From a virus (Duplodnaviria > Heunggongvirae > Uroviricota > Caudoviricetes): a DNA stretch of 64,000 nucleotides. The translations under genes and the position numbers were made by a program. Numbering within the stretch: the first letter of the stretch is position 1; every line of letters begins with the position of its first letter. The stretch lies in the IMG/VR virus record IMGVR_UViG_3300023174_000034; one strand, given 5' to 3'. The notes under the pieces are model-generated. The model made no database searches. It was not told where the DNA came from and saw only the letters and a program-made list of their open reading frames with translations. Below, piece after piece: positions 15,478-57,121 of this stretch.

Positions 15478-15543
<66 letters not shown>

Positions 15544-36765: not shown

Positions 36766-37123
36766 AGAGTAGTGCAGGCTGAAGAAGCAAGTAAAATTCT
36801 CGGCGCAATCCGGGCCAATGAACGTGGGCACAGCTGAATCTATAGGGCAGTTAGATTGCTAATTGTCCTTGACGGGCGTGTGGAGGGTGAGAGTGGCGAT
36901 TGTATGATGTACCTCTTCCAAAAGAAGATTGTGCATGATACGAAACTTAACTGGCTAACCCGCAAGGGTTTCCAACCGTATCCTAGTGCAGGTGGAGTAA
37001 GTCATAGGGGCTGTGTCCTTTGTTTTCCACCAAATAGTAGGATCTCTGTTTGTTGTTGATCGTCTATTGTTGCAAGAGTAGCTTGTATGTTATTTGTCCT
37101 GCCATGACTTGGCCACACACCGA

Positions 37124-37432
37124 CTAAATTTCTTCAGTGGTAATCTGTTCAGTCCATCCACCTGGATGAGTTGCAATACCTTGAGCATTAGAAAACTGTT
37201 CCTGAGACATTAGTTTTACTAGGAATCTATTGGCTGATTGCTTATCGTCGAAATCTCGTGTGAACACGGCATCTGTATCTGTATAAGTAACATCGTTCAC
37301 AACATCCAATCCGTTGCTTTTGCACAAAGCAATTTTTTGAGCAGTAGCCTCATCAAGTTCGGATCCAAGAAACCACCAAGGATTGGTATCAGTTTTGGTA
37401 AGTTTAATTGTTATGCGATATGCCATTGTCAT
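37124..37432 (-). CDS. Hypothetical protein.
   Basis: Minus-strand 102-aa ORF. Confidence 0.45.
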   Translation of the reverse strand: MTMAYRITIKLTKTDTNPWWFLGSELDEATAQKIALCKSNGLDVVNDVTYTDTDAVFTRDFDDKQSANRFLVKLMSQEQFSNAQGIATHPGGWTEQITTEEI

Positions 37433-37459
37433 TGACTCCTATGTTGTATTTATGTTAAA

Positions 37460-37852
37460 GTGTGTGTTATGGCATATCAAATTTATTCTAACTCTGCATC
37501 CACGCTAGGCAATGTAACTATCAATCCTTATCAAGGCGCTGGGCTATATCAAGTGACCGGGACCGGCGGGTACACACTGGCAACTGGTAACAGTAATGGC
37601 ACCTGGGCCAGCGTGGTAAGCTCTGGCACTACCACACCATCAATTCAAGTAAAAGGTGATGCCGAATTTGAAGGCAACGTTACCATAAATGGTGCTAACT
37701 TGGCCGAAACCCTACAGCGAATACAAGAGAGACTGGCCATCTTGGTTCCTGATCCCAAGCTCTTGGACAAATACGACGCCTTGCAACAAGCATACGAACA
37801 CTACAAAATTCTAGAGGCCCTGTGTGTTGAACAATATAATCCTGACAAATAG
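37460..37852 (+). CDS. Hypothetical protein.
   Basis: 130-aa ORF. Confidence 0.4.
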   Translation: MCVMAYQIYSNSASTLGNVTINPYQGAGLYQVTGTGGYTLATGNSNGTWASVVSSGTTTPSIQVKGDAEFEGNVTINGANLAETLQRIQERLAILVPDPKLLDKYDALQQAYEHYKILEALCVEQYNPDK

Positions 37853-38036
37853 CGGAGATTCGTGGTACCTAAATGTGGGTAGAGTCACACGCGAACAACG
37901 AGAACAAATGATTGCCTGGTGTTACGAATGTTGGGGAACCTGGTGGGGCGAAGTGGATACCAGTTTGGACACAACCGTTTTTATTTTTCCCCGATTGAGC
38001 CATGCAAATTGGTTCATGTTAAAATGGGTAGATTGA
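37824..38036 (+). CDS. FxLKW-family small protein (variant C-terminus ANWFMLKWVD).
   Basis: Trp-rich. Family C-terminal motif. Confidence 0.4.
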   Translation: MLNNIILTNSGDSWYLNVGRVTREQREQMIAWCYECWGTWWGEVDTSLDTTVFIFPRLSHANWFMLKWVD

Positions 38037-38066
38037 CATAGTGTAAATAATATGCTATACTAAATC

Positions 38067-38255
38067 ATGACTACTATAACATTAACTGATCCAAATCGAG
38101 CAACTGCGGCCGGAGCATGGGCAGTGAAAAACATTGGCTATAAACATTGGACACTAAATGTTCCTGCTGAAGCTGTGTTTACCAAAAACCCTCGTTATGA
38201 GTTTACTTTTGATCGTAAAAAAGATGCAGTATTATTTTCTCTAAAATGGATATGA
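38067..38255 (+). CDS. FxLKW-family small protein.
   Basis: C-terminus KKDAVLFSLKWI. Confidence 0.5.
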   Translation: MTTITLTDPNRATAAGAWAVKNIGYKHWTLNVPAEAVFTKNPRYEFTFDRKKDAVLFSLKWI

Positions 38256-38264
38256 CAAACGGGC

Positions 38265-38474
38265 ATGAAGATCGTAACCCTACCATTCCGTGAAGGCACT
38301 TCAGAACAAGAATCACATCGTGGCGTGATGATTTCTCGTTGGCTCAAGGAACAGGGTATTATCATGGGCAAGGATTATACTTGGCGTGTGGATCAACATG
38401 CTCGTGAACTACAATTTATGTTTAACGGTGATGCAGAATCATGGGCAACCATGCTGACTATAAAAGAACTATGA
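38265..38474 (+). CDS. Small protein, a weak FxLKW-family member (…SWATMLTIKEL).
   Basis: Tandem position within the array. Confidence 0.4.
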   Translation: MKIVTLPFREGTSEQESHRGVMISRWLKEQGIIMGKDYTWRVDQHARELQFMFNGDAESWATMLTIKEL

Positions 38475-38689
38475 TTACCATACCCGTTGAACCCTACTAC
38501 GACAAACTGCAAGAGTATCATCGTGACCACAAGATTGATGTGGACTTTTGGGAGTGGATTAAAACTGAGTACGGTGCTTACCAAGTTTGGATCAAAACTA
38601 ATCCCACAGCAGTGGGCGAAAAGGAAGCGTCGGGGCTGATGTTTGGTGAAGACGAAGAAGCCACGCTGTTTACATTGAAATGGTCATAG
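38471..38689 (+). CDS. FxLKW-family small protein.
   Basis: C-terminus EEATLFTLKWS. ATGA overlap with the previous gene. Confidence 0.5.
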   Translation: MITIPVEPYYDKLQEYHRDHKIDVDFWEWIKTEYGAYQVWIKTNPTAVGEKEASGLMFGEDEEATLFTLKWS

Positions 38690-38931
38690 AACGATCAGAA
38701 GGGCGTGTGTATGGTGCAAGATATTGGACTGTGCATCCAGTGATGGAGCCAAATTGGGTGTACGAACATCAGCGCAGTTGGGACGAAATGCTGGCATGGG
38801 TGATTGATACATTTGGTCCTACTGCCAAGGATGGTGTGTGGACTCCTAGTCAACGATGGTATGTGAACAATGCAAAGTTTTGGTTCCGTGAAGAAAAAGA
38901 TCTACTGGTATTTTTATTGAAGTGGCAATGA
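38680..38931 (+). CDS. FxLKW-family small protein.
   Basis: C-terminus EKDLLVFLLKWQ. Confidence 0.5.
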   Translation: MVIERSEGRVYGARYWTVHPVMEPNWVYEHQRSWDEMLAWVIDTFGPTAKDGVWTPSQRWYVNNAKFWFREEKDLLVFLLKWQ

Positions 38932-39164
38932 TCAAAGACGAAACTTTTCCGTTTCCTAACAATTGGACACAGGTATTTGTGTCTTGGGAACGCATGATGG
39001 AGCAACAACCCAATTGCCAAGACGTGACCAATTGGGTAGAAAATGAGTATACGGGGTTTGGTAGGTACCAGTTGCGTGGACCAGACTGGTGTCCAACGTC
39101 AGGTTTTTTGTTTTACTTTGAAGACGAACGAGACGCAATTACTTTTATTCTCAAATGGTTATGA
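38922..39164 (+). CDS. FxLKW-family small protein.
   Basis: C-terminus ERDAITFILKWL. The true ATG is probably at 38928. Confidence 0.5.
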   Translation: MAMIKDETFPFPNNWTQVFVSWERMMEQQPNCQDVTNWVENEYTGFGRYQLRGPDWCPTSGFLFYFEDERDAITFILKWL

Positions 39165-39415
39165 ACTCAGCACAAAAGCGCAGACACAATCGTGGGCTAA
39201 GAAAACTAGATCACGAAATACTAATAGATGCACACAAACATCGTGATGCTGGTGCATGGTGCCAGGCGCAGTTTGGCAAGCGTTGGGAAGCAATAGGCAA
39301 GAACACCGACGGAGACTGGTGTATGTTTTGGGCCGGCAGAGAAGCTCATGACAAGTATAGATTTTGTTTTGCACAGGAGGCAGACGCAATCGTGTTTGCA
39401 CTGAAATGGGTATGA
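39155..39415 (+). CDS. FxLKW-family small protein.
   Basis: C-terminus EADAIVFALKWV. Confidence 0.5.
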   Translation: MVMNSAQKRRHNRGLRKLDHEILIDAHKHRDAGAWCQAQFGKRWEAIGKNTDGDWCMFWAGREAHDKYRFCFAQEADAIVFALKWV

Positions 39416-39597
39416 GACACACAGTAACACTACCTTTTATCTACGAATGGCATCCAGGTACCTGGGCTAAAGAACACTGCCTAAGTTATCTGTCGGCTAC
39501 TGCTTATTGGGATGTAGAAGATCCAGACACCAGCATAGTCGAGTATCATTTTGAGAATGAAAAAGACGCGGCAATTTTTACACTAAGGTGGATATAA
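39412..39597 (+). CDS. FxLKW-family small protein.
   Basis: C-terminus EKDAAIFTLRWI. ATGA overlap. Confidence 0.5.
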   Translation: MRHTVTLPFIYEWHPGTWAKEHCLSYLSATAYWDVEDPDTSIVEYHFENEKDAAIFTLRWI

Positions 39598-39690
39598 AAT
39601 GATTAAAAAACTATGGCAACGGATTGTAATGGAAATACGCTATCGTAAAAGACTGCGTGAGTTACGCAAAAAAGATCCGTTTATATACAA

Positions 39691-40635
39691 ATGATACACT
39701 GGGGGATCAACGCACTCAATCACGGCACTAGCCTGGCTGTGATCAAAGACAGCAGACTGGTACAGTTTGATTACTCACCAGCTGAACATGCTTTTGACGA
39801 ACTGAAACGACAGGCCTTGGATCATGGCGCACCAGATGTCATGTACTGGTACGAACGTCCTTGGATCAAAAAAGCACGACAACTACGTGCCGGGCAGTAC
39901 AGCGCGGCCATGGACATGAGCGTGTTGCCCAGTCAGTGGCTCAAACAACACAGACTTGGCTATGCCGGCCTGCGCTACACGCCACATCATGCTAGCCATG
40001 CCGCGGCAGGTTACTATACTAGTCCTTTCAATCACTGTGCCATTGTTGTGCTTGATGCCATTGGCGAGTTTGAATGTGCAACCATCTGGGAAGGCCTGCA
40101 TGGAGAAATGCGTAAGGTCTGGAGTGCCAGCTATCCGCACAGTCTAGGCTTGTTCTACAGCGCATTTACAAAACTGCTAGGGCTAGAGCCTATCAAGCAA
40201 GAACACATCTTGCAACAGATGTCTGCACAAGGCGACCCTGAACGTTTTTATCATGCGGTCAAACGCTACATAGACTTCACAGTTGACCTTAAGTATAATC
40301 TACATGCAGGTGTTCCAGACTGGCCACATGAGATCGAATCAGTCCAGGATGAATCGGACCTGGCGGCGGCTGTGCAACGAGTGTTTGAAGAACAGGTGTC
40401 AGCAGTGATGCTGAAAGCACGGCAACTGATAAACAGTGATTGTCTAGTGTACATGGGTGGCTGTGCCATGAACAGCCAGGCAAACGAATACGAAGTCAAG
40501 GCTTGGAAGTATGTGTGGTCGTTGCCTAACCCAGGCGACCCTAGCAGTGCAATTGGTGCTGTGCTGTATCACACCAAAGAAAGAATATGGAATTGGCAAT
40601 GGGATCCAGTAAAGCACATACAGATCAAGGTTTAG
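39691..40635 (+). CDS. Carbamoyltransferase N-terminal (NodU/CmcH, Kae1/ASKHA-like) domain protein lacking the C-terminal domain.
   Basis: HHASHAAAGYYTSPF, IVVLDAIGE, GGCAMNS and NPGDPSSAIGA match Carbam_trans_N blocks. Confidence 0.5.
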   Translation: MIHWGINALNHGTSLAVIKDSRLVQFDYSPAEHAFDELKRQALDHGAPDVMYWYERPWIKKARQLRAGQYSAAMDMSVLPSQWLKQHRLGYAGLRYTPHHASHAAAGYYTSPFNHCAIVVLDAIGEFECATIWEGLHGEMRKVWSASYPHSLGLFYSAFTKLLGLEPIKQEHILQQMSAQGDPERFYHAVKRYIDFTVDLKYNLHAGVPDWPHEIESVQDESDLAAAVQRVFEEQVSAVMLKARQLINSDCLVYMGGCAMNSQANEYEVKAWKYVWSLPNPGDPSSAIGAVLYHTKERIWNWQWDPVKHIQIKV

Positions 40636-40931
40636 AAGATTACATAGCAGAATTGATCGCACAAGAAATATCTGAAGAAATTGATCGCAACATAATAGAC
40701 AGTATCATTTGGGAGGCAACTTTGAAGAACAATGCTACGTGGCACCTGGTACAATTAAAATGGGAAAAAGGCAAAGACACCGCCTACTTTTGGAACGAAG
40801 CATGTGCCTGGGCCGTGGAAAATTTTGGGCTTCCTGGCGACAATTATGTGACACATCCTACCGAAAACTACATGGACTTCTTGTTCAAGAATGAAAAAGA
40901 TGCTATACTAATGACACTTAAATGGATCTAG
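40587..40931 (+). CDS. FxLKW-family protein (114 aa).
   Basis: C-terminus EKDAILMTLKWI. Start uncertain because it overlaps the end of the previous gene. Confidence 0.45.
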   Translation: MELAMGSSKAHTDQGLEDYIAELIAQEISEEIDRNIIDSIIWEATLKNNATWHLVQLKWEKGKDTAYFWNEACAWAVENFGLPGDNYVTHPTENYMDFLFKNEKDAILMTLKWI

Positions 40932-40932
40932 C

Positions 40933-41172
40933 ATGAAACACCATGAGCTCACACATGCAGAATGGAATCGTATCCGCGAACAAATTCGCACTGAGTTTGG
41001 TAACAGTATGATCATGCTACGAAGCAGGATGCGTGACGAACTGGGATTCATGCCTCGTGAACACCGTTCATGGGTGCCAAAAATGGATGGCGGGCACTGG
41101 GGTGAAACAGAGATCCATATTGACTTTTACACGGAGCAGGCCAGGACTTGGTTCCTACTGAAATTTGTATGA
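40933..41172 (+). CDS. FxLKW-family variant (…EQARTWFLLKFV).
   Basis: Coupled ORF at the end of the array. Confidence 0.45.
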   Translation: MKHHELTHAEWNRIREQIRTEFGNSMIMLRSRMRDELGFMPREHRSWVPKMDGGHWGETEIHIDFYTEQARTWFLLKFV

Positions 41173-41600
41173 CGATGACTGAAGAACAAATTCGCGAACT
41201 TGCTGGCATATTTGATGACATCATCACCAGTGACAGCGATGCTGTAAAAAGTGCATTTCACAGATTGGCATTCCTAAGTTCTCTAGCACAACACACAAAG
41301 GAAGAACCCGGACCGTTCATTGACATGGTAACAAGGCTGGACTGGATGGAACGTGAAATGATAGAGATGAAACGTGACATACAGATACTGCAAAACAATG
41401 GTCAGAGTGATATGTTCACTGATTCAGATAGTCCAGCTGATATAACAATAAATTATGGTGCGGTCAATCTCACTGGCAGTGGCGGCACAATGCTTGGCGG
41501 ACATAACTATGTTAACATTGCTCCACTGACATCAAATGACATTGTAAGTCTTACCCCTGTGGACTTTGGCACAATTAAATTAACCAACGGAGCAACCTAG
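41148..41600 (+). CDS. Hypothetical protein.
   Basis: 150-aa coupled ORF. Confidence 0.4.
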   Translation: MVPTEICMTMTEEQIRELAGIFDDIITSDSDAVKSAFHRLAFLSSLAQHTKEEPGPFIDMVTRLDWMEREMIEMKRDIQILQNNGQSDMFTDSDSPADITINYGAVNLTGSGGTMLGGHNYVNIAPLTSNDIVSLTPVDFGTIKLTNGAT

Positions 41601-42449
41601 ATGGCACAACATTCTCAATACTGGAGCAACACTAAATTCGCCGGGTGGATCCGCGGTGTAGTAAAACCACATGCCCTGACCAGCGAAGGTTGGGATGCGT
41701 GGAATGATTCTGCACAAAAAGCATTCCCTGTTCGCTACTGGATTGCTGAAGAAGCACTGGACTGGCTACAGGACTTTGTGACATGGCCTGTTAGGAAAAT
41801 TTATGACATCAAGTATTACATCAACAATCGCTGGGTCACTGGGACTCATCGTCTTACTGCACACCCTCGAAACATCAAGCCTGGCGACTGGTGCGATGTT
41901 GGCAATCGCTTCCTTCCTTGTCTTTTCAATGAGCTTGTGGACTTTGTTGAAATAGAACAAGCCTGGCATCACATTGCCTGGGGTGACGAAGAAGTTCGTG
42001 CAAAGTACAAGCCTCCATTCTGGGCCTCTGGTTGGTTCCGCTGGAGAACCTGGCGCTGTGCTGAAGCAGGACTAGACAGTCTTGAATGGCAAAGTCGTCT
42101 GACCAAGGGCACAGATGGCTGGAACAAAAACGAAGAAGATGCAGATGACCCAACACCACAGGCTGTGAAAGCACAGGAAATCATGGACCTGTACAACTGG
42201 TGGACAAAGGTCTACCCAAACCGACCGGACCCATATGAAGCCAGCGGGTGGACAGCAGTGTGCGAAGAAGAACGAGCAGCCAATGGTGGTAAACTACACA
42301 TAGGCAGTCTTGGCAAAAGTAGCCCAGCATTGCGTAAGCGCATAGACCAGGCGCACAAGATGATTAACAAAATGGAAAAAGACAACGAAAAAGAAGACGA
42401 AGTCATGATGATCCGTTTGATCAAAGTTAGGCAAGGTCTATGGACTTGA
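41601..42449 (+). CDS. Hypothetical Trp-rich protein (282 aa).
   Basis: ORF immediately after the previous stop. Confidence 0.45.
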   Translation: MAQHSQYWSNTKFAGWIRGVVKPHALTSEGWDAWNDSAQKAFPVRYWIAEEALDWLQDFVTWPVRKIYDIKYYINNRWVTGTHRLTAHPRNIKPGDWCDVGNRFLPCLFNELVDFVEIEQAWHHIAWGDEEVRAKYKPPFWASGWFRWRTWRCAEAGLDSLEWQSRLTKGTDGWNKNEEDADDPTPQAVKAQEIMDLYNWWTKVYPNRPDPYEASGWTAVCEEERAANGGKLHIGSLGKSSPALRKRIDQAHKMINKMEKDNEKEDEVMMIRLIKVRQGLWT

Positions 42450-45842: not shown

Positions 45843-48800
45843 ATGTCTCAGCAAATAATCAATATTGGTACTAGTGCAGGCGCAGGTGACGGAGACGAAC
45901 TTCGTCAAGCGTTTGATAAAGTAAACGAAAATTTCACAGAAATTTACAGTGGTAACGTTGCCGCTGGAAATTTACTTGTAACGTCTGTGGCTGGCCGCCA
46001 AGGTGCTGTTGAGCTGACCTGGCTTGATATTGCAGGTGTTGCGAACCAGGGCAATGTTACCCAATTAAAACAGTACATTACGTCCAATCTGGCGGCGTCT
46101 TATGCCTACACTGATACTGCAATCAACAACTTGGCAAGTGTCAACAATATAACTGTTGCAGGTGGTACATTATCCAATGTAAACATCACCGGTAACAGTA
46201 CAGGTACATTCACCACTGTTTCAGTAACAAGCACACTGACAGCAAATGCTTTAATCATTGGTACTGGTGGGCTTTCGCTTCCAAATGGTAACTTTGTTCT
46301 AGCAAACGGTAGTTTAGTAGCAAACACCATTGTGTTTGGCGATGCTACCACAATGACCACAACACCAAACTTTGCGCCAACCAACACAGCTATTGCTGGC
46401 CTACGTGCCAACATTACTGCGGCCAATGCCAGTGTTGTGGCGGCCAATCTAAGAGTTGATGCAGCCAATGCCAGCATTACCACTGCAACCAATCGTATTT
46501 CAACACTTGAGGCAAATGCTACCACTCAAGCACTAAGCATCATTACATTGACCTCTGCCAACAGTATCCAGTCTGGGCAAATCAATACTCTGTCTGCCAA
46601 TGCAGGAACACAGGCAGGACAGATCATTGCGCTACGTGCCAATATCACTGCGGCCAATGCACAAATTGACAGCAACTATGCAAGCCTGACATCCAACGCC
46701 AGCACACAGCAAACACAGATCAATGTGTTGCAAAGCAACGTTGTGTCGCTCAATGCGGCAGTGGCCAGTATCAATGCAGGCAACGGTTTGACCTCAGCCA
46801 ATACTGAAATTGACAAACTACGTGCCAACCTTACTGCGGCAAATACTGCAATCAGTACCCTGTCGTCTGTGACCACAGGCAATGCTGTTGCACAAGCGCA
46901 GGCCATCGGAGTGTTACAAACCAATGCAGTCACACAACATTTTCAAATTACCAGCTTGCAGGCCAATGTCGCTGCCGCTAATGTTTTAATTGCTGCCGCC
47001 AATCTAACTGTTGCCAACATACAGATATCAGAACTTCGTGCCAACATCATTGCAGCCAACACAGCCATTGCGGCTGTTACTGTGGCCTGGACTGCCAATG
47101 CAGGAACACAAGCAGGTCTAATAACCGGCTTGACATCCAATGCGGCATCCCAGTCTGTGGCACTCACAGCACTGGTTGCCAATGACGTTGCCCAGCACAC
47201 TTCCATTACTAGCCTACGTGCCAATATTGCGGCAGCTAATGCGGCTATTGCGGCCATTCCAAATGTCAACTCATTGCCAGGCGCAAATATCATTGGACAA
47301 GTTGCCAACTCTGTTGTGTCTGGCACAGTATACAATCCTATACAATCAAACATCACTCGAGTTGGCAATCTGACTGCACTGACAGTTGATGGCAATGCTC
47401 AAATTGACAACCTAACTGCCAGTGCTATCTTTGGACCAGTACGAACACCAGCACAACCATATATCACCAGCGTCGGAAACTTGACTGCCTTGACAGTGAT
47501 CGGAAACGTCACCACAGGTAATGTGAGCGGAGCCAAAGGTACATTTACCAACATTCAAGGCACACTATTAACTCCGGTCCAGACCAACATTACCAATGTT
47601 GGCACCTTGACTGCTCTAACCGTTGCAGGTAATCTAGATGCCGGTAATGTTGTTACTGGTAACGTTTCTGCCAGTCGTATGACTGCCGGCAACATAGTCG
47701 GTACCATACTAACACCAAGCCAAACCAACATTACTCGTGTGGGCACACTCAGCAACTTGGCTGTGACTGCCAACACTGTGGTTGGTAACCTGATAGCAAC
47801 TGGTACTGTCAGTGGAGCAAATTTAACCGGTACACTAAACACAGCCGCACAAACAAACATTACCGCAGTAGGAACACTGGCTAATTTAACAGTTGCTGGC
47901 ACTGTCACAGCAGGTAATATTTCGACCACGGCCGATTTGTGGCTAGGAAATATTTACCCTACCAGGGTCAATGCTCCGATCATTGACTCAGCTGACATCC
48001 GTGGTAACTTAACCACTGCCGCGCAACCATACATCACCAGTGTTGGTACATTGACCAGCCTGACTGTGTCTGGTACCACAACCCTTGCTAATGCAACGCT
48101 GACTGGCACACTAACAGTTAAAGAAGTTGTTGCCAATCTAACAGCACATAACATTTCAGTTTACTCTAATGTATTGGTTGGAAACCTTAACGCTAGTTTC
48201 ATTAGATCCAACGGCAACATACAGACTGGCAATATACTAGTAACTGGAAATATTGTTTCAACCGGTGCATTTGGTGTTGTGCATGCCACAACTGGTGACT
48301 TTGCTAACGTATTTGGAACAGTCAAAACCAATGCACAGCCATTCATTACTAGTGTAGGTACACTGTCAGCATTGACAGTTGATGGCCCTGTTAACATCAC
48401 TGGTAGCCAATTTGTTGCACAAGACTTTTATGTAACAGGCAACTTGTTTGTTAATGGCAACACAACAACTGTGAGTGCTGGCAACGTCACAACCAGCGAC
48501 AAAGACCTAACACTGGCCAATGGTGCAGTGAACTCAACAGCCGCACGTGGCGCCGGACTGTTAATTGGTCAAGGCGGTGCATACGGTAATCTAACCATTT
48601 ATGATGGTGTATGGACCACACCAAACGCATTTGCCATTGCAGGCAATGTTTCGACAGGTAATGTAAGTGGTACCAAAGGCACATTTACCACTGTGGGCGG
48701 CACATTACAAACTGCAAGCCAACCTAATATCACCACAGTTGGCACATTGGGCAATCTGGCAGTTGGCGGAAATATCACAGGTACCATTGCAACAGGCAAC

Positions 48801-51800
48801 CAACCATTCATCACAAACGTGGGTACACTGGGTAACATTACTATTACTGGTACTGCACGAGTTGGTAGTTTGGAATTGCTAGGCGGCGCTGGATCTACTC
48901 TAAACATCGACAACTTATATTTGACAGCCAATGCCTCTGTTGCAAACATCAACGTGAGTGGCACTGCCAATTTGGGCCGTATCAGTGGAACACTGATTAC
49001 CAATGCCCAGCCAAATATTAACAGTGTTGGTACATTGGCTTCATTGACAGTGACTGGTGCTGTTACCACAGCAAACATCACAGCAAATGGTGCAGTGATC
49101 CGAGACCTAAACGTAACCAATGCCAACCTAAGTGTTCTAAGAGTTTCTGGTAATGTTACCACAGGCAACGTGAGTGGCACAACTGGTACGTTCACAAACA
49201 TCTCAGCTGGTTTTGCCAGCTTGACTGGCAATATCAATGTTGCCGCAGTTAATGCAACAAACGGAACATTTGTTGAAATGCAAGGTCGTGTGCTGACAAA
49301 TGCACAACCATACATTACCAGCGTTGGTACACTGACAGCATTGTCTGTGACTGGCAACGTTACTACAGGTAACGTAAGTGGTACAACAGGTGCGTTCACC
49401 AATGTAACTGGTACCCTACAAACTGCAAGTCAAACCAATATCACAGCAGTTGGCACACTAGGAGCACTGGCAGTCACAGGCAACGTTACTACAGGTAACG
49501 TGAGTGGTACAACTGGTGCATTCACCAATGTAACAGGTACCCTACAAACTGCAAGTCAAACCAATATCACAGCAGTTGGCACACTAGGCAACTTAACTGT
49601 TACTGGTACAACCACAGCGGCAAATATTTCTGCCAATGGTGTAACAGTCAAAGATCTAAATGCAACCTATGCCAACATTGGCGCAACTGCTAGTATTACA
49701 GGCAATGTCACAACAGGCAATGTAAGTGGTACAACTGGTGCATTCACCAATGTAACAGGTACGCTAAGAACCAATGCACAACCGCATATTACCAGTGTGG
49801 GTACACTAGGTAATTTAACTGTTACTGGTAATATCAGCGGCAACGTAGTGGCCACACTGATCTATGGTGGTATACTAACAGCATCATCGCAACCAAACAT
49901 CACAGTAGTCGGTACATTGGTGTCGTTGGGTGTGACAGGCAATGTCACAACAGGCAATGTAAGTGGTACAACTGGTGCATTCACCAATGTAACAGGTACG
50001 CTAAGAACCAATGCACAACCCTTTATTACCAGTACCGGCACTCTAACAACATTAGCTGTTACAGGTAATGCAAGCACAGGCAACGTAAGTGGCACTACTG
50101 CTACATTTACTGAAGTGCAAGGCACGGTGTTAACCAATGCTCAACCTTACATTACCAGTGTTGGTACTTTAACATCATTATCTGTCACAGGCAACGTCAG
50201 CGCAGCCGATGTAAATGCCACAGCTACACACACCACTGGTAACTCTGTATCATCAAACACGCAAGTGACTGGAACCGCGCAGGTTGCCAACTTGACTGTA
50301 ACTGGTAATACTGCTCTCACAAACAATGTCAATGCTTTGAGTAGCATAAACATCACCAACCAATTGGTTGTGTTGGGCGCCAACGTCAATGCAATAAATG
50401 CCAACGTGCAAGCAAGCTCGGCACTGATTACAAATGTATTTGTTGGCACCATGAGAGCCAGTAGCACTACAGAAGCCGAATCATCAGTTACTGGCGCAAT
50501 CGTAACTCCTGGTGGTATTAGTGCTTCCAAGCAAATCTACTCCGGTGGTAACTTGATTGCAGACGGTAACGTTATTTCTGGTGGTAATATTATTGCTCTC
50601 ACCAACGTTAGAGTTGGTGGCGACATGTACTTCTTTGGTACACAACCATCTGTGGACTTTATCAGCAACAGAGCAAACGTGTCAATGTTTGATAGTAGCG
50701 TTACAACTATCAGTATTGGCGGTGAAGCAACAACTGTAAACATTGGTGCAATTTCTGGATTTGGTAATACCACGATCCGTAATGACCTGACACTAAAAGG
50801 TGGTTTGTTTCCAGAAGGTGGATTTGGTCTACCTGGACTTGGCAATGTTATTGTCAACAATGACCTGAATGTTGCTGCCAGCATTTATGCTCCTTACATC
50901 ACTGTTGGTGCTCGTACTATCACAGGCAACGGTTTTGCCAATGCACGTACCACAGCAACCAATATCAACAGCGGTGCGCTACAAGTACGTGGCGGCACTG
51001 GTATCAGTGGTAACCTAGTGGTTGGTGCTCCAAGCAACAGCAACAGCACAGTCTACATCAACAGCATTGCTACAACAACAAGCAGTAGTACAGGTGCGTT
51101 ACAAGTCACAGGCGGTATTGCTACCAAAGGTAACTTGTGGGTGGAAGGCGAAGCAACCATCGTTGGTAACGTGAACTTTACAGCGTTTTTGGCAGCATCC
51201 ATCAACGGTACACCAATTGGTAACGCAACACCAAGCACTGGTGTGTTTACTGCAATAGCCACATCCAATAGTACCCCAAGCATTCGTCCAAGTATCAACT
51301 TTGACTTTGCAAACAATCCAAACTTGCCACAGAGCATTACCTACTCACGCACAGGACCAGCAACGTACTACGATGTTCGTGGTAACTTACGTGTAGCACC
51401 TGCATATGCTCCTCGCTTTACCCATGACCCATCAACAGGTGTTTGCTTGGGATTGATGATTGAAGAAACTCGTCAAAACTTGTATCGTGAGTCCAACAGC
51501 TTTGCTAACACTGCTGTGTATGCAACAACCAATGCAACTGTGTCGGTTGTGTCAAGTGCAACACCCAGCCCAGACGGCAACTACAATGCCTACAAACTAG
51601 TCGACAATGCCACACTCAACATCCACGGCATTGCACAACAAGCACCATACTCTCCAACTGTATCACTTGGTGCTATCTACACAGCCAGCGCCTTTGCCAA
51701 GGCAGGTGAAAAAGATCAAGTGTCGTTGATCTTCCAAGGCGAAGGCGATCCAACTATATTTGACTTGACCAACGGCGTGGTTGATCACGAAGGTACAGGA

Positions 51801-52610
51801 GCACCAGCACATAGAAGTACCATTGAACTGCAAGCCAACGGTTGGTACAGAATTTCTAGTACAGTGACCAAAACCAATACTGACGGTACAGTGACACTGG
51901 CATTGGCTGATGGTGGACTTGTCACTTACACAGGTACAGGCACTGCTGGTGCTTATGTATACGGTCTCCAGCTGGAACCTGGTGGTTTTGCAACCAGCTA
52001 TGTTCCAAACACAACTGTTGCCAACACCCGTGGCACAGATACTGTTACTATTACTTCAGCTGAATTTACTCGCAAGTATGTGTCATCCCAGACCAGTGTC
52101 ATGGTTGATGCACGTTTGAACTATCGTCCGACTACACTGACTGGTGTACAACGTTCAACATTGGTCAGCTTCAATGACGGCACAGTCAACAATCGCGTGA
52201 GCATTGTGGCAGAAAATAAAACTTCAAGCCCAGTAGCACGTTTTGCTAATTTGGTAATTTACTCAAGTGGTGTATTGCAAAGCAACGTCTCGTTGAACAG
52301 CAATATTTCAGTACCTGTTGCCAACTTGACTTCAAGTGCATTGCGTGGGTATGTATCAACCAGTGAAGTTGGCAAGGTGGCAGCATACTTTAGCCGCACT
52401 GGCCTAATTGGTCGTGCTTACAACAACGTAGGCAACGTTTATGCCAGCTCTGGCAACGTCAGCCAATCAATCACGCAAATACAAATTGGTGCCGGTCCGG
52501 GCACCAGCGTACTGAATGGCACAATTTCTAAATTGCAAATCTTCTCAGCTGTGGTAACTGGTAACGAATTGCAAACACTAACACGGGTTCGAGCCGAAGG
52601 GGCAACATAA
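45843..52610 (+). CDS. Giant tail-fibre protein (2255 aa) built of beta-helix-like repeats.
   Basis: N-terminus QIINIGTSAGAGDGDELRQAFDKVNENFTEIY. Dozens of units of about 30-35 aa (TGNVSGTTGAFTNVTGTLQTASQTNITAVGTLGxLxVTGN). Confidence 0.7.
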   Translation: MSQQIINIGTSAGAGDGDELRQAFDKVNENFTEIYSGNVAAGNLLVTSVAGRQGAVELTWLDIAGVANQGNVTQLKQYITSNLAASYAYTDTAINNLASVNNITVAGGTLSNVNITGNSTGTFTTVSVTSTLTANALIIGTGGLSLPNGNFVLANGSLVANTIVFGDATTMTTTPNFAPTNTAIAGLRANITAANASVVAANLRVDAANASITTATNRISTLEANATTQALSIITLTSANSIQSGQINTLSANAGTQAGQIIALRANITAANAQIDSNYASLTSNASTQQTQINVLQSNVVSLNAAVASINAGNGLTSANTEIDKLRANLTAANTAISTLSSVTTGNAVAQAQAIGVLQTNAVTQHFQITSLQANVAAANVLIAAANLTVANIQISELRANIIAANTAIAAVTVAWTANAGTQAGLITGLTSNAASQSVALTALVANDVAQHTSITSLRANIAAANAAIAAIPNVNSLPGANIIGQVANSVVSGTVYNPIQSNITRVGNLTALTVDGNAQIDNLTASAIFGPVRTPAQPYITSVGNLTALTVIGNVTTGNVSGAKGTFTNIQGTLLTPVQTNITNVGTLTALTVAGNLDAGNVVTGNVSASRMTAGNIVGTILTPSQTNITRVGTLSNLAVTANTVVGNLIATGTVSGANLTGTLNTAAQTNITAVGTLANLTVAGTVTAGNISTTADLWLGNIYPTRVNAPIIDSADIRGNLTTAAQPYITSVGTLTSLTVSGTTTLANATLTGTLTVKEVVANLTAHNISVYSNVLVGNLNASFIRSNGNIQTGNILVTGNIVSTGAFGVVHATTGDFANVFGTVKTNAQPFITSVGTLSALTVDGPVNITGSQFVAQDFYVTGNLFVNGNTTTVSAGNVTTSDKDLTLANGAVNSTAARGAGLLIGQGGAYGNLTIYDGVWTTPNAFAIAGNVSTGNVSGTKGTFTTVGGTLQTASQPNITTVGTLGNLAVGGNITGTIATGNQPFITNVGTLGNITITGTARVGSLELLGGAGSTLNIDNLYLTANASVANINVSGTANLGRISGTLITNAQPNINSVGTLASLTVTGAVTTANITANGAVIRDLNVTNANLSVLRVSGNVTTGNVSGTTGTFTNISAGFASLTGNINVAAVNATNGTFVEMQGRVLTNAQPYITSVGTLTALSVTGNVTTGNVSGTTGAFTNVTGTLQTASQTNITAVGTLGALAVTGNVTTGNVSGTTGAFTNVTGTLQTASQTNITAVGTLGNLTVTGTTTAANISANGVTVKDLNATYANIGATASITGNVTTGNVSGTTGAFTNVTGTLRTNAQPHITSVGTLGNLTVTGNISGNVVATLIYGGILTASSQPNITVVGTLVSLGVTGNVTTGNVSGTTGAFTNVTGTLRTNAQPFITSTGTLTTLAVTGNASTGNVSGTTATFTEVQGTVLTNAQPYITSVGTLTSLSVTGNVSAADVNATATHTTGNSVSSNTQVTGTAQVANLTVTGNTALTNNVNALSSINITNQLVVLGANVNAINANVQASSALITNVFVGTMRASSTTEAESSVTGAIVTPGGISASKQIYSGGNLIADGNVISGGNIIALTNVRVGGDMYFFGTQPSVDFISNRANVSMFDSSVTTISIGGEATTVNIGAISGFGNTTIRNDLTLKGGLFPEGGFGLPGLGNVIVNNDLNVAASIYAPYITVGARTITGNGFANARTTATNINSGALQVRGGTGISGNLVVGAPSNSNSTVYINSIATTTSSSTGALQVTGGIATKGNLWVEGEATIVGNVNFTAFLAASINGTPIGNATPSTGVFTAIATSNSTPSIRPSINFDFANNPNLPQSITYSRTGPATYYDVRGNLRVAPAYAPRFTHDPSTGVCLGLMIEETRQNLYRESNSFANTAVYATTNATVSVVSSATPSPDGNYNAYKLVDNATLNIHGIAQQAPYSPTVSLGAIYTASAFAKAGEKDQVSLIFQGEGDPTIFDLTNGVVDHEGTGAPAHRSTIELQANGWYRISSTVTKTNTDGTVTLALADGGLVTYTGTGTAGAYVYGLQLEPGGFATSYVPNTTVANTRGTDTVTITSAEFTRKYVSSQTSVMVDARLNYRPTTLTGVQRSTLVSFNDGTVNNRVSIVAENKTSSPVARFANLVIYSSGVLQSNVSLNSNISVPVANLTSSALRGYVSTSEVGKVAAYFSRTGLIGRAYNNVGNVYASSGNVSQSITQIQIGAGPGTSVLNGTISKLQIFSAVVTGNELQTLTRVRAEGAT
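49361..49600 (+). repeat. Near-identical tandem coding repeat of about 120 nt inside the giant fibre gene.
   Basis: aacgttactacaggtaacgt(a/g)agtggtacaac(a/t)ggtgc(g/a)ttcaccaatgtaac(t/a)ggtaccctacaaactgcaagtcaaaccaatatcacagcagttggcacactagg occurs twice in tandem. A further near-identical pair lies at about 49690-49780 and about 49930-50020. Confidence 0.7.
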
Positions 52611-53989: not shown

Positions 53990-56900
53990 ATGTCAAAGAA
54001 GCAAGTTAAAAAATACGTATATGTACCAGGCGGTGTGGGCACTGGCCATGCAGGTGTCGGCAGCGGCGATGGCAAAAACGGCTATATTATAGTCGAAGGA
54101 AAACAAGACTTGTACAAGTTGTTGTTGATTACCAACGTCACCCGAGGTACTATTCTTTACAACTTTGCCGACACATTAAACACAGGTGCAACAACATCAT
54201 TCTCTCCAGGCGGTATCAAAACCAGTACCGCAGATACATCTGTAGTAACCTACGATAATATTCCTCTTGGGTCATTGACAGTTGGAACTGCGTCTATTCA
54301 AAACACACCAGGATCTGGCGAAACAAGAATTTATCTCACAAGTATTGATACCAGCAGCCATGATCCAGCAGATAAACTAAGTATCTTCGTTGAGGAGCAA
54401 TACCAATTGGTGCGTACCTGGGGCGACTTCGGCACTGATGCGATTGAGCGTCAACGTGTGGCCAATCCACAATCACAAATTGACGCTGACTTTGAATACG
54501 GACTGCAAGCTACCAAATGGCAAGGCTTTGAATTGGTTAACCAATATCCAAGCGTGTACGAAGCAACAGGTGCCGAACTAGTCACCACTGCTCTTTCATC
54601 TAGCAACACTGATCCAAGTGTTATCACAGTCTACAGCACAGCACACGGCTTGGCCGTGAATGATCCTTTTACATTACAAGGCGCAGACGTTAACGCAACT
54701 GGCTTTACTCGAGCACAAGGTAGTTCTATTGTGTTCAGTGCCAATGCAAATGCATTCTCTTACTATGCAAAAGGTCAAGTTACTCCGTTAGCAGGCACAG
54801 CCAACGCAAGTATTTTAAGTCCACGTACTTTGATACGCAAAGGCGGATTCTACTCTGGTGCAGATTTGCCTGCTGTTCAGTTTAGCTCAAATGGTGCTAC
54901 TCCATCCAGCATCACCATCCACTTTAGCTCATCACATGGTTTTACGCCAGGCATGCCTCTTATGATTGGTGGAGACCCCACATTCAATACCAATCAATTC
55001 CAAAATTTAGTCGGTAGCTATTATGCCAATAGCATTCCAACTGCATACCAAGTTGAATTCACTGCACGTGGCCAAGTTATTACTTCTGGTAACGTTGCAC
55101 CCAACTCAGGCACAAACAAACTAAAAGTATACACACGCAATGACGGTTTCTTCCTGCATCGCCCAGGTGACGGCGGTGTACTAATGGGCACAGCCAGTGC
55201 GGCACATGGTGCTGCCGCTACTCGTCAAAGTAAGAAATATTTCCGATACCAGTCTGGTAAAGGCTTGTTGTACACCACCGGTGTGTTGTTTGCTCCCAAC
55301 TATGATGTTGTCAGTGTTGCTGTGAATAACTATCCACAGCAATCAGCAGGTTCTGCTATTTTGCGTATCACAACCAGCGTACCACATGGTTGCCAAATTG
55401 GCGCTGTGATTCGTATCACAGGATGTGTGGACTCAACTACCAGTTCTGGATTCAATGCACAATACACAGTTACTGGTATTGTGAGTGATGTATCACTGGA
55501 TGTTCTTGCTACCAACAACGTGGTTGGTACTGGCGCTGACGTGGCGGCTGTTCCAAAATTGTACATGTACCAGTGGCACGGTGCTTGTATTCGTACAGGC
55601 CCGCATGATGATGCCAATGGTATGTTCTACGAATACGACGGACAATACTTCAACGTTGTCAAACGTACATCAACACTACAACTTGCAGGTACTGCAACAT
55701 TTACCGCAGGCTCTAACACCATCGATGGTGTCAATACATTGTGGGCAAGTCAGTTGAAAATTGGCGATCGTATTGTTATCAAGGGCATGGTTCACAAGGT
55801 GAACTATATCACAAGCACAACACAAATTGCTGTTACACCTGACTTCCGTGGTGCATCAACCACGTCAGGTAATTACATTTGGAAAGTACAGGAAGTTCGA
55901 GTCAAACAAGCAAATTTCAACTACGATACAGCTGACGGAACTGGTCCAAGTGGTTACAAGATGGATCCAAACCACATGCAGATGATTGGTATTCAGTTTA
56001 CCTGGTACGGTGCCGGTTTTATGGACTTCATGGTACGTGGTCCAGATGGTAACTTTATTATCCTACATCGCATGAAACAAAACAACATCAACGTTACTGC
56101 TTCCATGCGTTCAGCTAACTTACCTATTCGTTATGAAGTTTCAAACGAAGCATCTAACGGTGTTGTACAGTTGAAGACCACAGGCGGCTTGACAACCAGC
56201 TCAACCAGCTGTGCTGTGAGCGATGTGACATTCTTACCAGACACTGGTTATATCTACATGAACTATGAATTGATCAAGTATTCAAGTATCAACCGTAACG
56301 ATACTCCATATCCAATTCTAAACGGATTGACTCGTTGTGCAGGTGCCAACGTGTTCATTGGTGGTTCTTACAGAACCATCCACGGCGTACCTGCTCCTAT
56401 TGCACACGGCCCAGGATCAGGTATTGAGCTTGTGTCATTGACAGCAAGTCCAAACATCAGTCACTGGGGTAGTTCATACATCATGGACGGCGGATTTGAC
56501 CTGGATCGTGGTTATGCGTTCTCATACTCATTCCAACCATCTCCTATTAGCAATACCTTAACTTCAAAATTTGGTATTCGATTGGCACCTAGTGCAAGTA
56601 ATGGATTAACTGGCGATTTGGGCGTTAAAGAATTGTTAAATCGTGCTCAGTTGTTGCTACAAAACATCGACGTAACAGTGGGCAATGCCGCAGTCACTGA
56701 CAGTGTGCGTACAGCATACAGCGCCACCTCGGTGATTGAAGCAAACTCTGCTATCCTTGTACAAGGTATCCTGAATCCAAGCAACTACTACGAAGCAAAC
56801 GAAGTATGGGCACCGCTAAACTCTGCAGGTTACGGCGCACAGCCTAGTTTTACACAAATTGCGGCAGCGCCAACATTTACTGCAAACACAGCGGCCATTG

Positions 56901-57121
56901 GAGGCGAAAAGATTTTTGAATTCCTTGCAAGTCCTGGACAGCTAAACCAGTTAGATTTGTCAGGTATCAAAGAACTTACGCAAAGTGCAGTGGGCGGACG
57001 TGGTACTTTCCCCAACGGATCTGACAGTTTGTACATTAACATACAACTTTATCCATCCACTGGTTCTCGAATCATGGGTAATGTGGGTATGACACTACGT
57101 TGGAACGAAGCGCAGGCCTAA
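53990..57121 (+). CDS. Large virion structural protein (1043 aa), a fibre or baseplate component.
   Basis: Long Ser/Thr/Gly/Asn-rich ORF within the fibre module. Abuts the previous gene's stop. Confidence 0.5.
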   Translation: MSKKQVKKYVYVPGGVGTGHAGVGSGDGKNGYIIVEGKQDLYKLLLITNVTRGTILYNFADTLNTGATTSFSPGGIKTSTADTSVVTYDNIPLGSLTVGTASIQNTPGSGETRIYLTSIDTSSHDPADKLSIFVEEQYQLVRTWGDFGTDAIERQRVANPQSQIDADFEYGLQATKWQGFELVNQYPSVYEATGAELVTTALSSSNTDPSVITVYSTAHGLAVNDPFTLQGADVNATGFTRAQGSSIVFSANANAFSYYAKGQVTPLAGTANASILSPRTLIRKGGFYSGADLPAVQFSSNGATPSSITIHFSSSHGFTPGMPLMIGGDPTFNTNQFQNLVGSYYANSIPTAYQVEFTARGQVITSGNVAPNSGTNKLKVYTRNDGFFLHRPGDGGVLMGTASAAHGAAATRQSKKYFRYQSGKGLLYTTGVLFAPNYDVVSVAVNNYPQQSAGSAILRITTSVPHGCQIGAVIRITGCVDSTTSSGFNAQYTVTGIVSDVSLDVLATNNVVGTGADVAAVPKLYMYQWHGACIRTGPHDDANGMFYEYDGQYFNVVKRTSTLQLAGTATFTAGSNTIDGVNTLWASQLKIGDRIVIKGMVHKVNYITSTTQIAVTPDFRGASTTSGNYIWKVQEVRVKQANFNYDTADGTGPSGYKMDPNHMQMIGIQFTWYGAGFMDFMVRGPDGNFIILHRMKQNNINVTASMRSANLPIRYEVSNEASNGVVQLKTTGGLTTSSTSCAVSDVTFLPDTGYIYMNYELIKYSSINRNDTPYPILNGLTRCAGANVFIGGSYRTIHGVPAPIAHGPGSGIELVSLTASPNISHWGSSYIMDGGFDLDRGYAFSYSFQPSPISNTLTSKFGIRLAPSASNGLTGDLGVKELLNRAQLLLQNIDVTVGNAAVTDSVRTAYSATSVIEANSAILVQGILNPSNYYEANEVWAPLNSAGYGAQPSFTQIAAAPTFTANTAAIGGEKIFEFLASPGQLNQLDLSGIKELTQSAVGGRGTFPNGSDSLYINIQLYPSTGSRIMGNVGMTLRWNEAQA

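What the first reader, a model, noticed from the sequence alone, without database searches (positions are those of the whole stretch)
37824..41172. Translationally coupled tandem array of about 10 small paralogous genes sharing a C-terminal F-x-LKW motif
At least ten consecutive ORFs of 60-115 aa end in a shared motif. Seven share the full motif: F-[ED]-x-[ED]-[KR]-D-A-x-x-F-x-L-[KR]-W-[ILV/S/Q]-stop. Examples are KKDAVLFSLKWI, EEATLFTLKWS, EKDLLVFLLKWQ, ERDAITFILKWL, EADAIVFALKWV, EKDAAIFTLRWI and EKDAILMTLKWI. Three variants match only the terminal F-x-LK[WF] core: FMLKWVD, TWFLLKFV and the weak TIKEL member. The N-terminal two-thirds are highly diverged but uniformly Trp-rich. Most starts overlap the previous stop as ATGA. 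The array is interrupted once by a truncated carbamoyltransferase-N-domain gene. Tandem, rapidly diversifying small-protein families in phage accessory regions are typical of host-takeover or anti-defence loci. This family is not one I recognise.
Basis: seen in the sequence. Interest (0 to 1): 0.7.

Follow-up and report, generated by a model that had tools for sequence, protein, structure and literature searches.

The report
Tandem array of unknown small phage proteins
A large uncultured phage carries ten back-to-back copies of a small, tryptophan-rich protein domain that no database has named; the array is real and widespread in uncultured phages, but its function is still only a guess.

Summary
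Window 37824-41172 (+ strand) encodes ten small ORFs of 61-110 aa, all ending in F-x-F-x-x-E-x-D-A-x-x-F-x-L-[KR]-W or a degenerate form of it. Eight are secure paralogues, m3 is probable, and m10 is a weak, divergent member.

- **Family:** no Pfam, PHROG, NCBIfam or PDB relative. There are at least 425 clusters at 50% identity in metagenomes, none in 185,579 cellular species genomes for the commonest subfamily, and one cultured carrier, Sinorhizobium jumbo phage Phosso.
- **Arrays:** in 88 related loci, all 440 family ORFs lie on one strand, in arrays of up to 15 copies built from about 72 reshuffled subfamilies.
- **Evolution:** the paralogues are old and under purifying selection (dN/dS 0.08-0.38), not rapidly diversifying.

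My best reading is a set of early, co-translated, non-enzymatic binding modules acting on different host targets. That function is inferred, not shown. The family is new; the kind of locus (hyperplastic accessory region) is known.

The parts
37824..38036 (+). m1, 70 aa, GTG start overlapping the upstream gene by 29 nt; ends FMLKWVD
   Evidence: Leave-one-out E 0.0018; diverse HMM E 6.7e-10. Orthologs P0091, P0109 and P0113 at 73-77% identity.
38033..38061 (+). Sigma-70-type promoter TTGACA-N17-TATACT with TG before the -10; it ends 5 nt before the m2 ATG
   Evidence: 11 of 12 matches, the best in the region. Identical in L001-L003; other TTGACA..TATAAT sites lie inside the L005 array. Function inferred, not shown.
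38067..38255 (+). m2, 62 aa, full motif (FDRKKDAVLFSLKWI)
   Evidence: Leave-one-out E 1e-8; diverse HMM E 4.5e-10.
38265..38474 (+). m3, 69 aa, degenerate C-terminus (FMFNGDAESWATMLTIKEL); probable divergent member
   Evidence: Leave-one-out E 0.14; diverse HMM E 4.4e-4; hhalign of its ortholog group against the family gives 82% probability, E 1.1e-5.
38471..38689 (+). m4, 72 aa, ATGA-coupled to m3
   Evidence: Leave-one-out E 5.9e-4; diverse HMM E 6.5e-8.
38680..38931 (+). m5, 83 aa; the most widespread subfamily (GARYWTVHP...RWYxNNAKFWFRxE)
   Evidence: Diverse HMM E 5.6e-22. AF2 pLDDT 88.9 with beta-beta-alpha-beta-beta-alpha order. 195 IMG/VR loci and none in cellular genomes.
38928..39164 (+). 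m6, 78 aa, ATGA-coupled
39161..39415 (+). m7, 84 aa, ATGA-coupled, basic (pI 9.2)
39412..39597 (+). m8, 61 aa, ATGA-coupled
39599..39694 (+). 31-aa basic ORF (MIKKLWQRIVMEIRYRKRLRELRKKDPFIYK), ATGA-coupled to the carbamoyltransferase gene; not a family member; part of the inserted cassette
   Evidence: Identical in L001 and L004, and present only where the carbamoyltransferase gene is present.
39691..40635 (+). 314-aa carbamoyltransferase N-domain-only gene; the cassette that interrupts the array
   Evidence: Pfam Carbam_trans_N E 6e-25 covering profile positions 102-345 of 346; phrog_1601 positions 83-326 of 528. 95% aa identity and dN/dS 0.08 against L001. Replaced by other genes in L002 and absent in L005-8.
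40599..40931 (+). m9, 110 aa (114 aa from the alternative ATG at 40587); overlaps the carbamoyltransferase stop by 37 nt; N-terminal long helix plus core domain
   Evidence: Leave-one-out E 3.6e-9. AF2 pLDDT 81, with the core above 90. 78 orthologs among the listed hits. The 110-aa form is on record in the protein collection.
40933..41172 (+). m10, 79 aa, ends TWFLLKFV; weak, divergent member with an insert of about 17 residues
   Evidence: Leave-one-out E 3.8, not significant; diverse HMM E 7.7e-3; hhalign 47% probability, E 2e-4, in register over the whole domain. Always follows the m9 ortholog in relatives.

Best explanation
The region encodes ten stand-alone paralogues (eight secure, two divergent) of an undescribed small-protein family found so far only in phages.

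**The protein.** Each has a core of about 55-65 residues predicted to form a two-layer alpha/beta sandwich (beta-alpha-beta-beta-alpha), preceded in some members by an extra beta-hairpin or a long helix. The strongly conserved positions are W, G, W, F-x-F, D-A, F-x-L-[KR]-W. Almost all are core-forming aromatic or hydrophobic residues, and no catalytic constellation is present. Surface charge (pI 4.3-9.8) and N-terminal decorations differ from paralogue to paralogue.

**The locus.** The genes are co-oriented and overlap or abut. They follow sigma-70-type promoters and lack T4-type late promoter boxes. They are therefore most likely made early as one polycistronic, translationally coupled unit. 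The paralogues are ancient, each is kept by purifying selection, and they are reshuffled, gained and lost as cassettes. The same hyperplastic region also takes up metabolic cassettes: a carbamoyltransferase N-domain here, a peptide deformylase in relatives.

**Most likely mechanism.** These are non-enzymatic binding modules. They share a rigid Trp/Phe-packed scaffold but present different surfaces, and each binds a different host (or phage) macromolecule early in infection, for host takeover or counter-defence.

**Shown versus inferred.** Shown: family membership, the predicted fold, array architecture, distribution, and the selection regime. Inferred: early expression, translational coupling, the binding function and its targets.
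For: - **Family real and confined to the array:**
- **No curated family:** Pfam, PHROGs and NCBIfam give none. The scattered PHROG hits of database members fall on N-terminal extensions only. A profile against PDB sequences finds nothing.
- **Size of the family:** 425 clusters at 50% identity at E <= 1e-3. The best 150 are all 47-141 aa with the domain at the C-terminus and no fused known domain.
- **Conserved columns:** the ten most conserved are W35, G41, W48, F59, F61, D66, F70, L72, R/K73 and W74.
- **Variable properties:** pI and Trp content.
- **Arrays elsewhere:** 440 family ORFs in 88 loci, none on the opposite strand, up to 15 per array. About 72 subfamilies occur in permuted orders.
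- **Junctions:** 44% of family stops form ATGA against 22% of other + strand ORFs; window junctions are.
- **Promoters:**
- **Selection and mosaicism:** dN/dS 0.08-0.38 and mosaic identity to L001. Paralogue DNA identity is only 61-71% over 49 nt.
- **Phage-only so far:** no m5-type gene in 185,579 cellular species genomes against 195 IMG/VR loci.
Against: - There is no direct evidence for any binding partner, for expression timing, or for a phenotype.
- A conserved core with variable surfaces is what any old, diverged family shows, so it does not single out a binder role.
- Purifying selection and ancient paralogy fit poorly with a classical arms-race family.
- Tight translational coupling is equally expected for subunits of one complex.
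- The fold is also compatible with RNA binding or small-ligand binding.
- The promoter evidence is a consensus match only. The host, and therefore its promoter type, is unknown.
Confidence: 0.42

Rival explanations
1. The paralogues are subunits of one hetero-oligomeric assembly. The exposed beta-sheet edges and faces pair between neighbours, as in ACT or DCoH dimers and tetramers, and translational coupling sets the stoichiometry.
For: - ATGA coupling is enriched at family junctions.
- Some gene orders are stable within a lineage; for example the order B-C-A-D occurs in 16 loci.
Against: - Copy number runs from 1 to 15, and subfamily content and order differ widely between lineages. That is hard to square with a fixed complex.
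- Close relatives swap or lose members (L002 against the window).
- ATGA overlaps are also common among unrelated genes of these phages, at 22%.
Confidence: 0.15
2. They are small nucleic-acid-binding proteins with an RRM or ferredoxin-like topology. Aromatic residues on the strand before the last helix would contact RNA or DNA, and the proteins would regulate phage or host RNA or DNA early in infection.
For: - The last strand before the final helix is [KR]-F-[WYH]-F-[RK], so aromatic residues sit on both faces of that strand.
- Two members are basic, with pI 9.2-9.8.
- Translation-related genes lie nearby in several carriers: IF1-like, S21, PDF, RRF, ThrRS and tmRNA.
Against: - Most members are acidic, with pI 4.3-6.1.
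- No basic patch is conserved; the only conserved charged positions are D66 and R/K73.
- No Pfam RRM, KH or dsRBD signal appears in 150 diverse members.
Confidence: 0.13
3. They are virion-associated or assembly-related proteins, such as injected internal proteins, capsid decoration proteins or assembly helpers. The capsid-protein-like N-terminal helix of m9 hints at this.
For: - Residues 16-55 of m9 match the Pfam Gp23 model at positions 170-209 (E 9.5e-5), and residues 16-49 match phrog_138 major head protein (E 5.5e-4).
- Several m9 orthologs carry a precomputed PF07068 hit.
- T4-type internal-protein loci are likewise hypervariable (my own knowledge, not tested here).
Against: - The match is below Pfam's gathering score (22.4 against 24.4 bits), covers only one helix, and is limited to one subfamily.
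- There is no shared N-terminal targeting sequence; the N-termini are the variable part.
- The locus sits among early-type genes with sigma-70-like promoters and has no TATAAATA box nearby.
Confidence: 0.07
4. It is not a functional family. The ORFs are decaying fragments of one larger gene, or neutral ORFan filler.
For: The ORFs are small, have no database annotation, and lie in a region with remnants of other genes. For example, the m9 orthologs P0016 and P0031 carry an endolysin-like motif at their N-terminus.
Against: - Each ORF is a complete, confidently predicted domain.
- Boundaries are identical in independent contigs.
- dN/dS is 0.08-0.38.
- Orthologs of individual members occur as separate genes in other orders.
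- None of the 440 HMM hits lies on the wrong strand.
Confidence: 0.03

Closest known systems
Hyperplastic regions of T4-type phages, including PeSL-flanked ORF cassettes (PMC2839356, PMC4122927) and cyanophage 'ORFanage' regions (PMC4503421)
   Same: A block of small, early-oriented genes of unknown function lies between conserved genes. Close relatives differ by cassette gain, loss and reshuffling, and metabolic genes are inserted among them.
   Different: - Here the small genes are homologous to one another, a single domain family with about 72 subfamilies, rather than unrelated ORFans.
- They are fused by overlapping stop and start codons instead of being separated by repeated promoter/stem-loop (PeSL) motifs.
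- No repeated intergenic DNA motif was found.
Lineage-specific expansions of small domains in jumbo phages, for example about 35 zinc-ribbon copies in Bacillus phage G (PMC7824862)
   Same: Many copies of one small domain occur in a very large phage genome (source contig probably 374 kb), with a proposed binding or regulatory rather than enzymatic role.
   Different: - The fold is different: an alpha/beta sandwich with no metal ligands.
- The copies are ancient, are shared across many phage lineages and are recombined, rather than being a recent expansion in one lineage.
Phage anti-defence gene clusters (anti-CRISPR and other anti-defence loci)
   Same: Runs of small, early, accessory proteins without enzymatic motifs, variable between related phages.
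   Different: - Anti-defence loci usually hold unrelated proteins, often beside an HTH regulator (my own knowledge).
- Here all members share one fold, and no HTH gene lies within or beside the array.
DCoH/PCD and ACT-type two-layer alpha/beta sandwiches

Membership tests
Any curated protein family (Pfam-A, PHROGs v4, NCBIfam 20) | Significant HMM match of the conserved domain | tested here: not met
   - The ten members give no domain hit.
- 150 diverse homologs give no consistent Pfam family.
- PHROG hits fall only on N-terminal extensions.
DCoH / pterin-4a-carbinolamine dehydratase | beta-beta-alpha-beta-beta-alpha fold | tested here: inconclusive
DCoH / pterin-4a-carbinolamine dehydratase | Conserved active-site histidines and a sequence-family match (the histidine criterion is from my own knowledge) | tested here: not met
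   No conserved His among the informative columns. No Pfam hit.
ACT domain | beta-alpha-beta-beta-alpha-beta fold with a ligand-binding loop, and a Pfam ACT match | tested here: not met
RRM | Four-stranded beta1-alpha1-beta2-beta3-alpha2-beta4 fold with RNP1 and RNP2 motifs | tested here: not met
   No beta4, no Pfam RRM hit, and only an RNP1-like aromatic strand. RNA binding itself was not testable.
T4-type internal proteins | Shared N-terminal capsid-targeting sequence with a variable remainder (my own knowledge) | tested here: not met
   In this family the C-terminus is conserved and the N-termini are variable.
PeSL-flanked cassettes of T4-type hyperplastic regions (PMC2839356) | Each ORF flanked by a repeated early-promoter plus stem-loop motif | tested here: not met
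   Genes overlap or abut. One strong promoter lies inside the array and a weaker match lies upstream of it. The only DNA repeat spanning several genes is the 49-nt coding motif at 61-71% identity; the others are short two-copy matches.
Anti-defence (for example anti-CRISPR) locus | Demonstrated inhibition of a defence system; commonly an adjacent HTH regulator | not testable with these tools
   No HTH gene is adjacent to the array. Inhibition needs an experiment.
Gp23 major capsid protein (PF07068) | Full-length match above the gathering score | tested here: not met
   Only residues 16-55 of m9 match, to 40 of 376 profile positions, at 22.4 bits against a cut-off of 24.4.
NodU/CmcH carbamoyltransferase (the interrupting gene) | N-terminal Carbam_trans_N domain plus a C-terminal carbamoyltransferase domain | tested here: not met
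   The N-domain is present (E 6e-25). The protein ends at 314 aa, against a 528-position PHROG profile of which only positions 83-326 match. It is nevertheless conserved, with dN/dS 0.08.

The most novel reading that the evidence does not exclude
The family is a phage-encoded repertoire of binders built on one Trp-packed scaffold. Different subfamilies would neutralise different host defence sensors. The N-terminal grafts seen in some members would then act as decoys for host systems that detect those phage proteins. The grafts seen are a capsid-protein-like helix in the m9 type, tail-fibre-like segments in P0127 and P0144, and an endolysin-like motif in P0016 and P0031. Arrays would be combinatorial counter-defence kits reshuffled between phages.
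Probability: 0.08. Interest if true: 0.85.

Novelty: new variant of a known kind. Interest (0 to 1): 0.45.

Why it matters
This is one of the larger phage protein families still without a name. It has hundreds of sequence clusters, a confident and simple predicted fold, and arrays of up to 15 copies in large uncultured freshwater phages, some of them cyanophage-like. One cultured jumbo rhizobiophage also carries it.

If the members are binders of host factors or of defence proteins, the arrays would be a ready-made catalogue of inhibitors with one scaffold. The cultured carrier makes that testable. If instead they form a complex or bind RNA, they would mark an unknown early function common to a whole branch of large phages.

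The locus also shows gene shuffling in T4-type hyperplastic regions without the promoter/stem-loop cassettes described so far.

Tried and rejected
- **DNA search:** blastn of 37000-42000 against 50,697 GenBank phages found nothing.
- **Protein searches against GenBank phages:** tblastn of m5, m9 and m7 found nothing, even at E 0.1 for m9 and m7. Only the HMM consensus found Phosso.
- **Family libraries:** Pfam, PHROGs and NCBIfam on the members and on 150 homologs gave no family.
- **Solved structures by sequence:** the family profile against PDB sequences gave nothing credible.
- **Locus search with the 150-sequence alignment:** I used the m5 subfamily instead, so 'absent from cellular genomes' is shown for that subfamily only.
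- **Literature:** searches for a description of such a family found none.
- **Disrupted-larger-gene idea:** rejected.
- **Recent duplication or accordion idea:** rejected because DNA identity between paralogues is limited to 61-71% over the motif.
- **Recombination at the motif:** the conserved C-terminal coding motif is too short and too divergent to argue for homologous recombination at gene boundaries.
- **Terminase-like N-termini:** P0151, P0164 and P0224 looked terminase-like by eye but gave no PHROG hit, so that claim is dropped.
- **Site-wise tests of positive selection:** not attempted, because dS is saturated in most pairs.

Full report

Yes. Ten ORFs lie head to tail on the + strand between 37824 and 41172. 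With starts moved to the ATGs that overlap the preceding stops, the members are:
- m1 37824-38036
- m2 38067-38255
- m3 38265-38474
- m4 38471-38689
- m5 38680-38931
- m6 38928-39164
- m7 39161-39415
- m8 39412-39597
- m9 40599 (or 40587)-40931
- m10 40933-41172

A C-terminal [FML]-x-L-[KR]-[WF] occurs in 9 of 17 + strand ORFs of at least 50 aa in the region, against 1 of 511 elsewhere in the window.

Leave-one-out HMMs recover eight members at E <= 0.002. m3 scores 0.14 and m10 scores 3.8. An HMM made only from 149 diverse database sequences hits all ten and nothing else in 64 kb; m3 scores 4.4e-4 and m10 scores 7.7e-3. Profile-profile comparison of the m3 and m10 ortholog groups with the family gives 82% probability (E 1e-5) and 47% (E 2e-4), both aligned in register over the whole domain. 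I count eight secure members, one probable (m3) and one weak (m10).

Trp content is 4.3-10%, against 1.2% in the window's long ORFs.

Junctions from up130/m1 to m10/dn143:
- six ATGA overlaps
- three longer overlaps (10, 29 and 37 nt)
- two 1-nt gaps
- two gaps of 9 and 30 nt

The last gap holds a near-consensus sigma-70 promoter. 'Most are ATGA' is therefore a slight overstatement.

The interrupting gene is a 314-aa protein with only the carbamoyltransferase N-domain. A 31-aa basic ORF at 39599-39694 precedes it, and the two travel together.

**2. What carries it?**

The window is a phage. It has rIIA (8749-10941) and an ATP-dependent DNA ligase. The best cultured rIIA relatives are only 32-44% identical, and there is no DNA match among GenBank phages. 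The exact proteins occur on a metagenomic contig of 373,949 bp, so this is probably a jumbo phage.

**3. The family.**

No Pfam, PHROG or NCBIfam model matches the ten members or 150 diverse homologs. The scattered PHROG hits of some homologs fall on N-terminal extensions, not on the domain. A family profile finds nothing credible among PDB sequences.

A profile of the ten members finds 665 proteins in the word-indexed collection. It finds 425 clusters at 50% identity at E <= 1e-3 in the exhaustive search. The best 150 are all 47-141 aa, with the domain at the C-terminus and no known domain attached. All named ones are 'hypothetical protein'.

The consensus is W-C-x-E-x-F-G ... W ... F-x-F-x-x-E-x-D-A-x-x-F-x-L-[RK]-W. 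The ten most informative columns are W, G, W, F, F, D, F, L, R/K and W. Eight are core-type residues, and there is no catalytic set.

**4. Fold.**

AlphaFold2 gives two models.
- m9 (130-sequence alignment): a long N-terminal helix followed by beta-alpha-beta-beta-alpha. pLDDT is 81, with the core above 90.
- m5 (29 sequences): beta-beta-alpha-beta-beta-alpha. pLDDT is 88.9.

**5. Distribution and architecture elsewhere.**

The m5 subfamily has no relative in 185,579 bacterial and archaeal species genomes, but it has 195 loci in IMG/VR. I scanned 88 fetched loci and the window (1.16 Mb, six frames) with the diverse HMM. This gave 440 family ORFs, every one on the strand of the anchor gene and none on the other strand. 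They lie in tandem runs of up to 13-15 copies on contigs of 240-364 kb.

Clustering at 40% identity gives about 72 subfamilies. Arrays are different permutations of a shared pool:
- window: K-F-U-G-A-I-H-J ... B
- L005-L008: K-F ... I-Q ... A-N-G-B
- sixteen other loci: B-C-A-D

Across all arrays, 44% of family stop codons form ATGA with the next start, against 22% for other + strand ORFs.

Among cultured phages, only Sinorhizobium jumbo phage Phosso was found, using the HMM consensus. It has two clear members and two weaker candidates in one cluster, all annotated hypothetical. One carrier, L091, has heme oxygenase, bilin reductase, ClpS and HSP20 genes nearby, which suggests a cyanophage.

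**6. Evolution.**

The paralogues are old. The only DNA repeat spanning several genes is the 49-nt motif region at 61-71% identity. Each has its own orthologs at 50-94% aa identity. Pairwise Nei-Gojobori dN/dS, where dS is not saturated, is 0.08-0.38. Neighbouring genes give 0.02-0.28. This is purifying selection.

Variation is modular:
- Against L001, m3-m5 are 100% identical, whereas m6-m9 are 53-83% identical.
- L002 has three small genes, two of them family members, in place of the 31-aa-ORF/carbamoyltransferase cassette.
- L005-L008 carry a peptide deformylase inside the array and have a different gene order.

The 'fragments of one larger gene' idea is excluded.

**7. Expression (inferred).**

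A TTGACA-N17-TATACT site with an upstream TG lies at 38033-38061, five bases before the m2 ATG. It is identical in the close relatives, and other such sites lie inside the L005 array. Similar sites precede other + strand units of the window, including the tmRNA gene. The T4 late box TATAAATA is absent near the array. This suggests early transcription by host polymerase, but it rests on consensus matching only, and the host is unknown.

**8. Mechanism.**

The family looks like a rigid aromatic-packed scaffold without enzymatic residues. Charge, N-terminal decoration and surface residues vary between subfamilies. The proteins are made together, probably early, from a region that also collects host-directed metabolic genes.

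I therefore favour non-enzymatic binding modules, each aimed at a different host or phage macromolecule, for takeover or counter-defence (confidence about 0.4). The rivals are:
- a hetero-oligomeric assembly of paralogues (0.15)
- small nucleic-acid binders of RRM-like topology (0.13)
- virion or assembly proteins (0.07)
- non-functional remnants (0.03)

None can be settled without experiments. The cultured phage Phosso makes them feasible.

**9. Comparison with what is known, and novelty.**

The locus behaves like the hyperplastic regions of T4-type phages (PMC2839356, PMC4122927, PMC4503421). It also resembles the small-domain expansions noted in jumbo phages (PMC7824862). It differs in three ways:
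- it is a single homologous family
- it lacks PeSL-type intergenic cassettes
- its paralogues are ancient and shared across many lineages

The papers I searched or read for jumbo and T4-type phage accessory regions do not describe it. I rate it a new variant of a known kind, with interest 0.45. The family is a solid, sizeable, testable unknown, but the phenomenon itself is not surprising to a phage genomicist.

Noticed in passing
window 15481-15932 (+), promoter-like site 15443-15471: A permuted (two-piece) tmRNA gene matching Rfam RF04321 at 96.6 bits against a gathering score of 47; ARAGORN also calls it. A TTGACA-N17-TATACT site lies directly upstream. The permuted form may hint at the host group: from my own knowledge, such tmRNAs occur in alphaproteobacteria, some cyanobacteria and some betaproteobacteria.
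   Followed up: partly
window 39599-39694 (+): A 31-aa very basic ORF (MIKKLWQRIVMEIRYRKRLRELRKKDPFIYK) is ATGA-coupled to the carbamoyltransferase N-domain gene. It is 100% conserved in L001 and L004 and is found only together with that gene, so the two form one inserted cassette.
   Followed up: partly
window 40632-40751 (m9 residues 16-55, numbered from the ATG at 40587): The N-terminal helix of m9 (LEDYIAELIAQEISEEIDRNIIDSIIWEA) matches a 40-position stretch of the Pfam Gp23 major capsid model (E 9.5e-5, below the cut-off). It also matches phrog_138 major head protein (E 5.5e-4). Several orthologs carry the same precomputed hit. Its meaning is unknown: a captured fragment, a mimic, or chance.
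   Followed up: partly
P0016 and P0031 (m9 orthologs, e.g. L005 10001-10348); P0127 and P0144: Some family members begin with short pieces of other phage genes. P0031 matches endolysin phrog_181 at residues 2-16 (YRGRGLxQxTGR motif), and P0016 shows the same motif by eye without a PHROG hit. P0127 and P0144 have tail-fibre or virion-protein-like segments at residues 3-53. This suggests frequent illegitimate recombination at these loci.
   Followed up: partly
window 39691-40635 (+): The carbamoyltransferase gene has only the N-terminal (Kae1-like) domain. It is nevertheless 95% identical to its L001 ortholog with dN/dS 0.08, so it is maintained, not decaying.
   Followed up: partly
L001 versus window 38265-40931: Divergence between two close relatives is mosaic. 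m3-m5 are 100% identical (dS 0-0.06), while the adjacent m6-m9 are 53-83% identical (dS 0.7-1.2). Recombination breakpoints therefore lie inside the array.
   Followed up: partly
L005-L008 (e.g. L005 8192-8650, 13411-14857): Relatives carry a peptide deformylase inside the array. Downstream they have an IF1-like (eIF-1a) gene, Fe-superoxide dismutase, ferredoxin and an Fe-S assembly gene, ahead of the conserved giant ORF.
   Followed up: no
window 45843-52610, 53990-57121, 57163-62724 (+): Three very long ORFs of 2255, 1043 and 1853 aa. The first has no Pfam hit, and relatives have a matching ORF of about 2330 aa. They may be fibre or structural proteins.
   Followed up: no
L092 (Sinorhizobium phage Phosso PV764938, 406.8-408.4 kb): This is the only cultured phage found with the domain. 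It has two clear members (E 6.8e-12 and 4.7e-4) and two weaker candidates in one cluster. ClpS, small HSP, RRF and ThrRS genes lie nearby, and all members are annotated hypothetical.
   Followed up: partly
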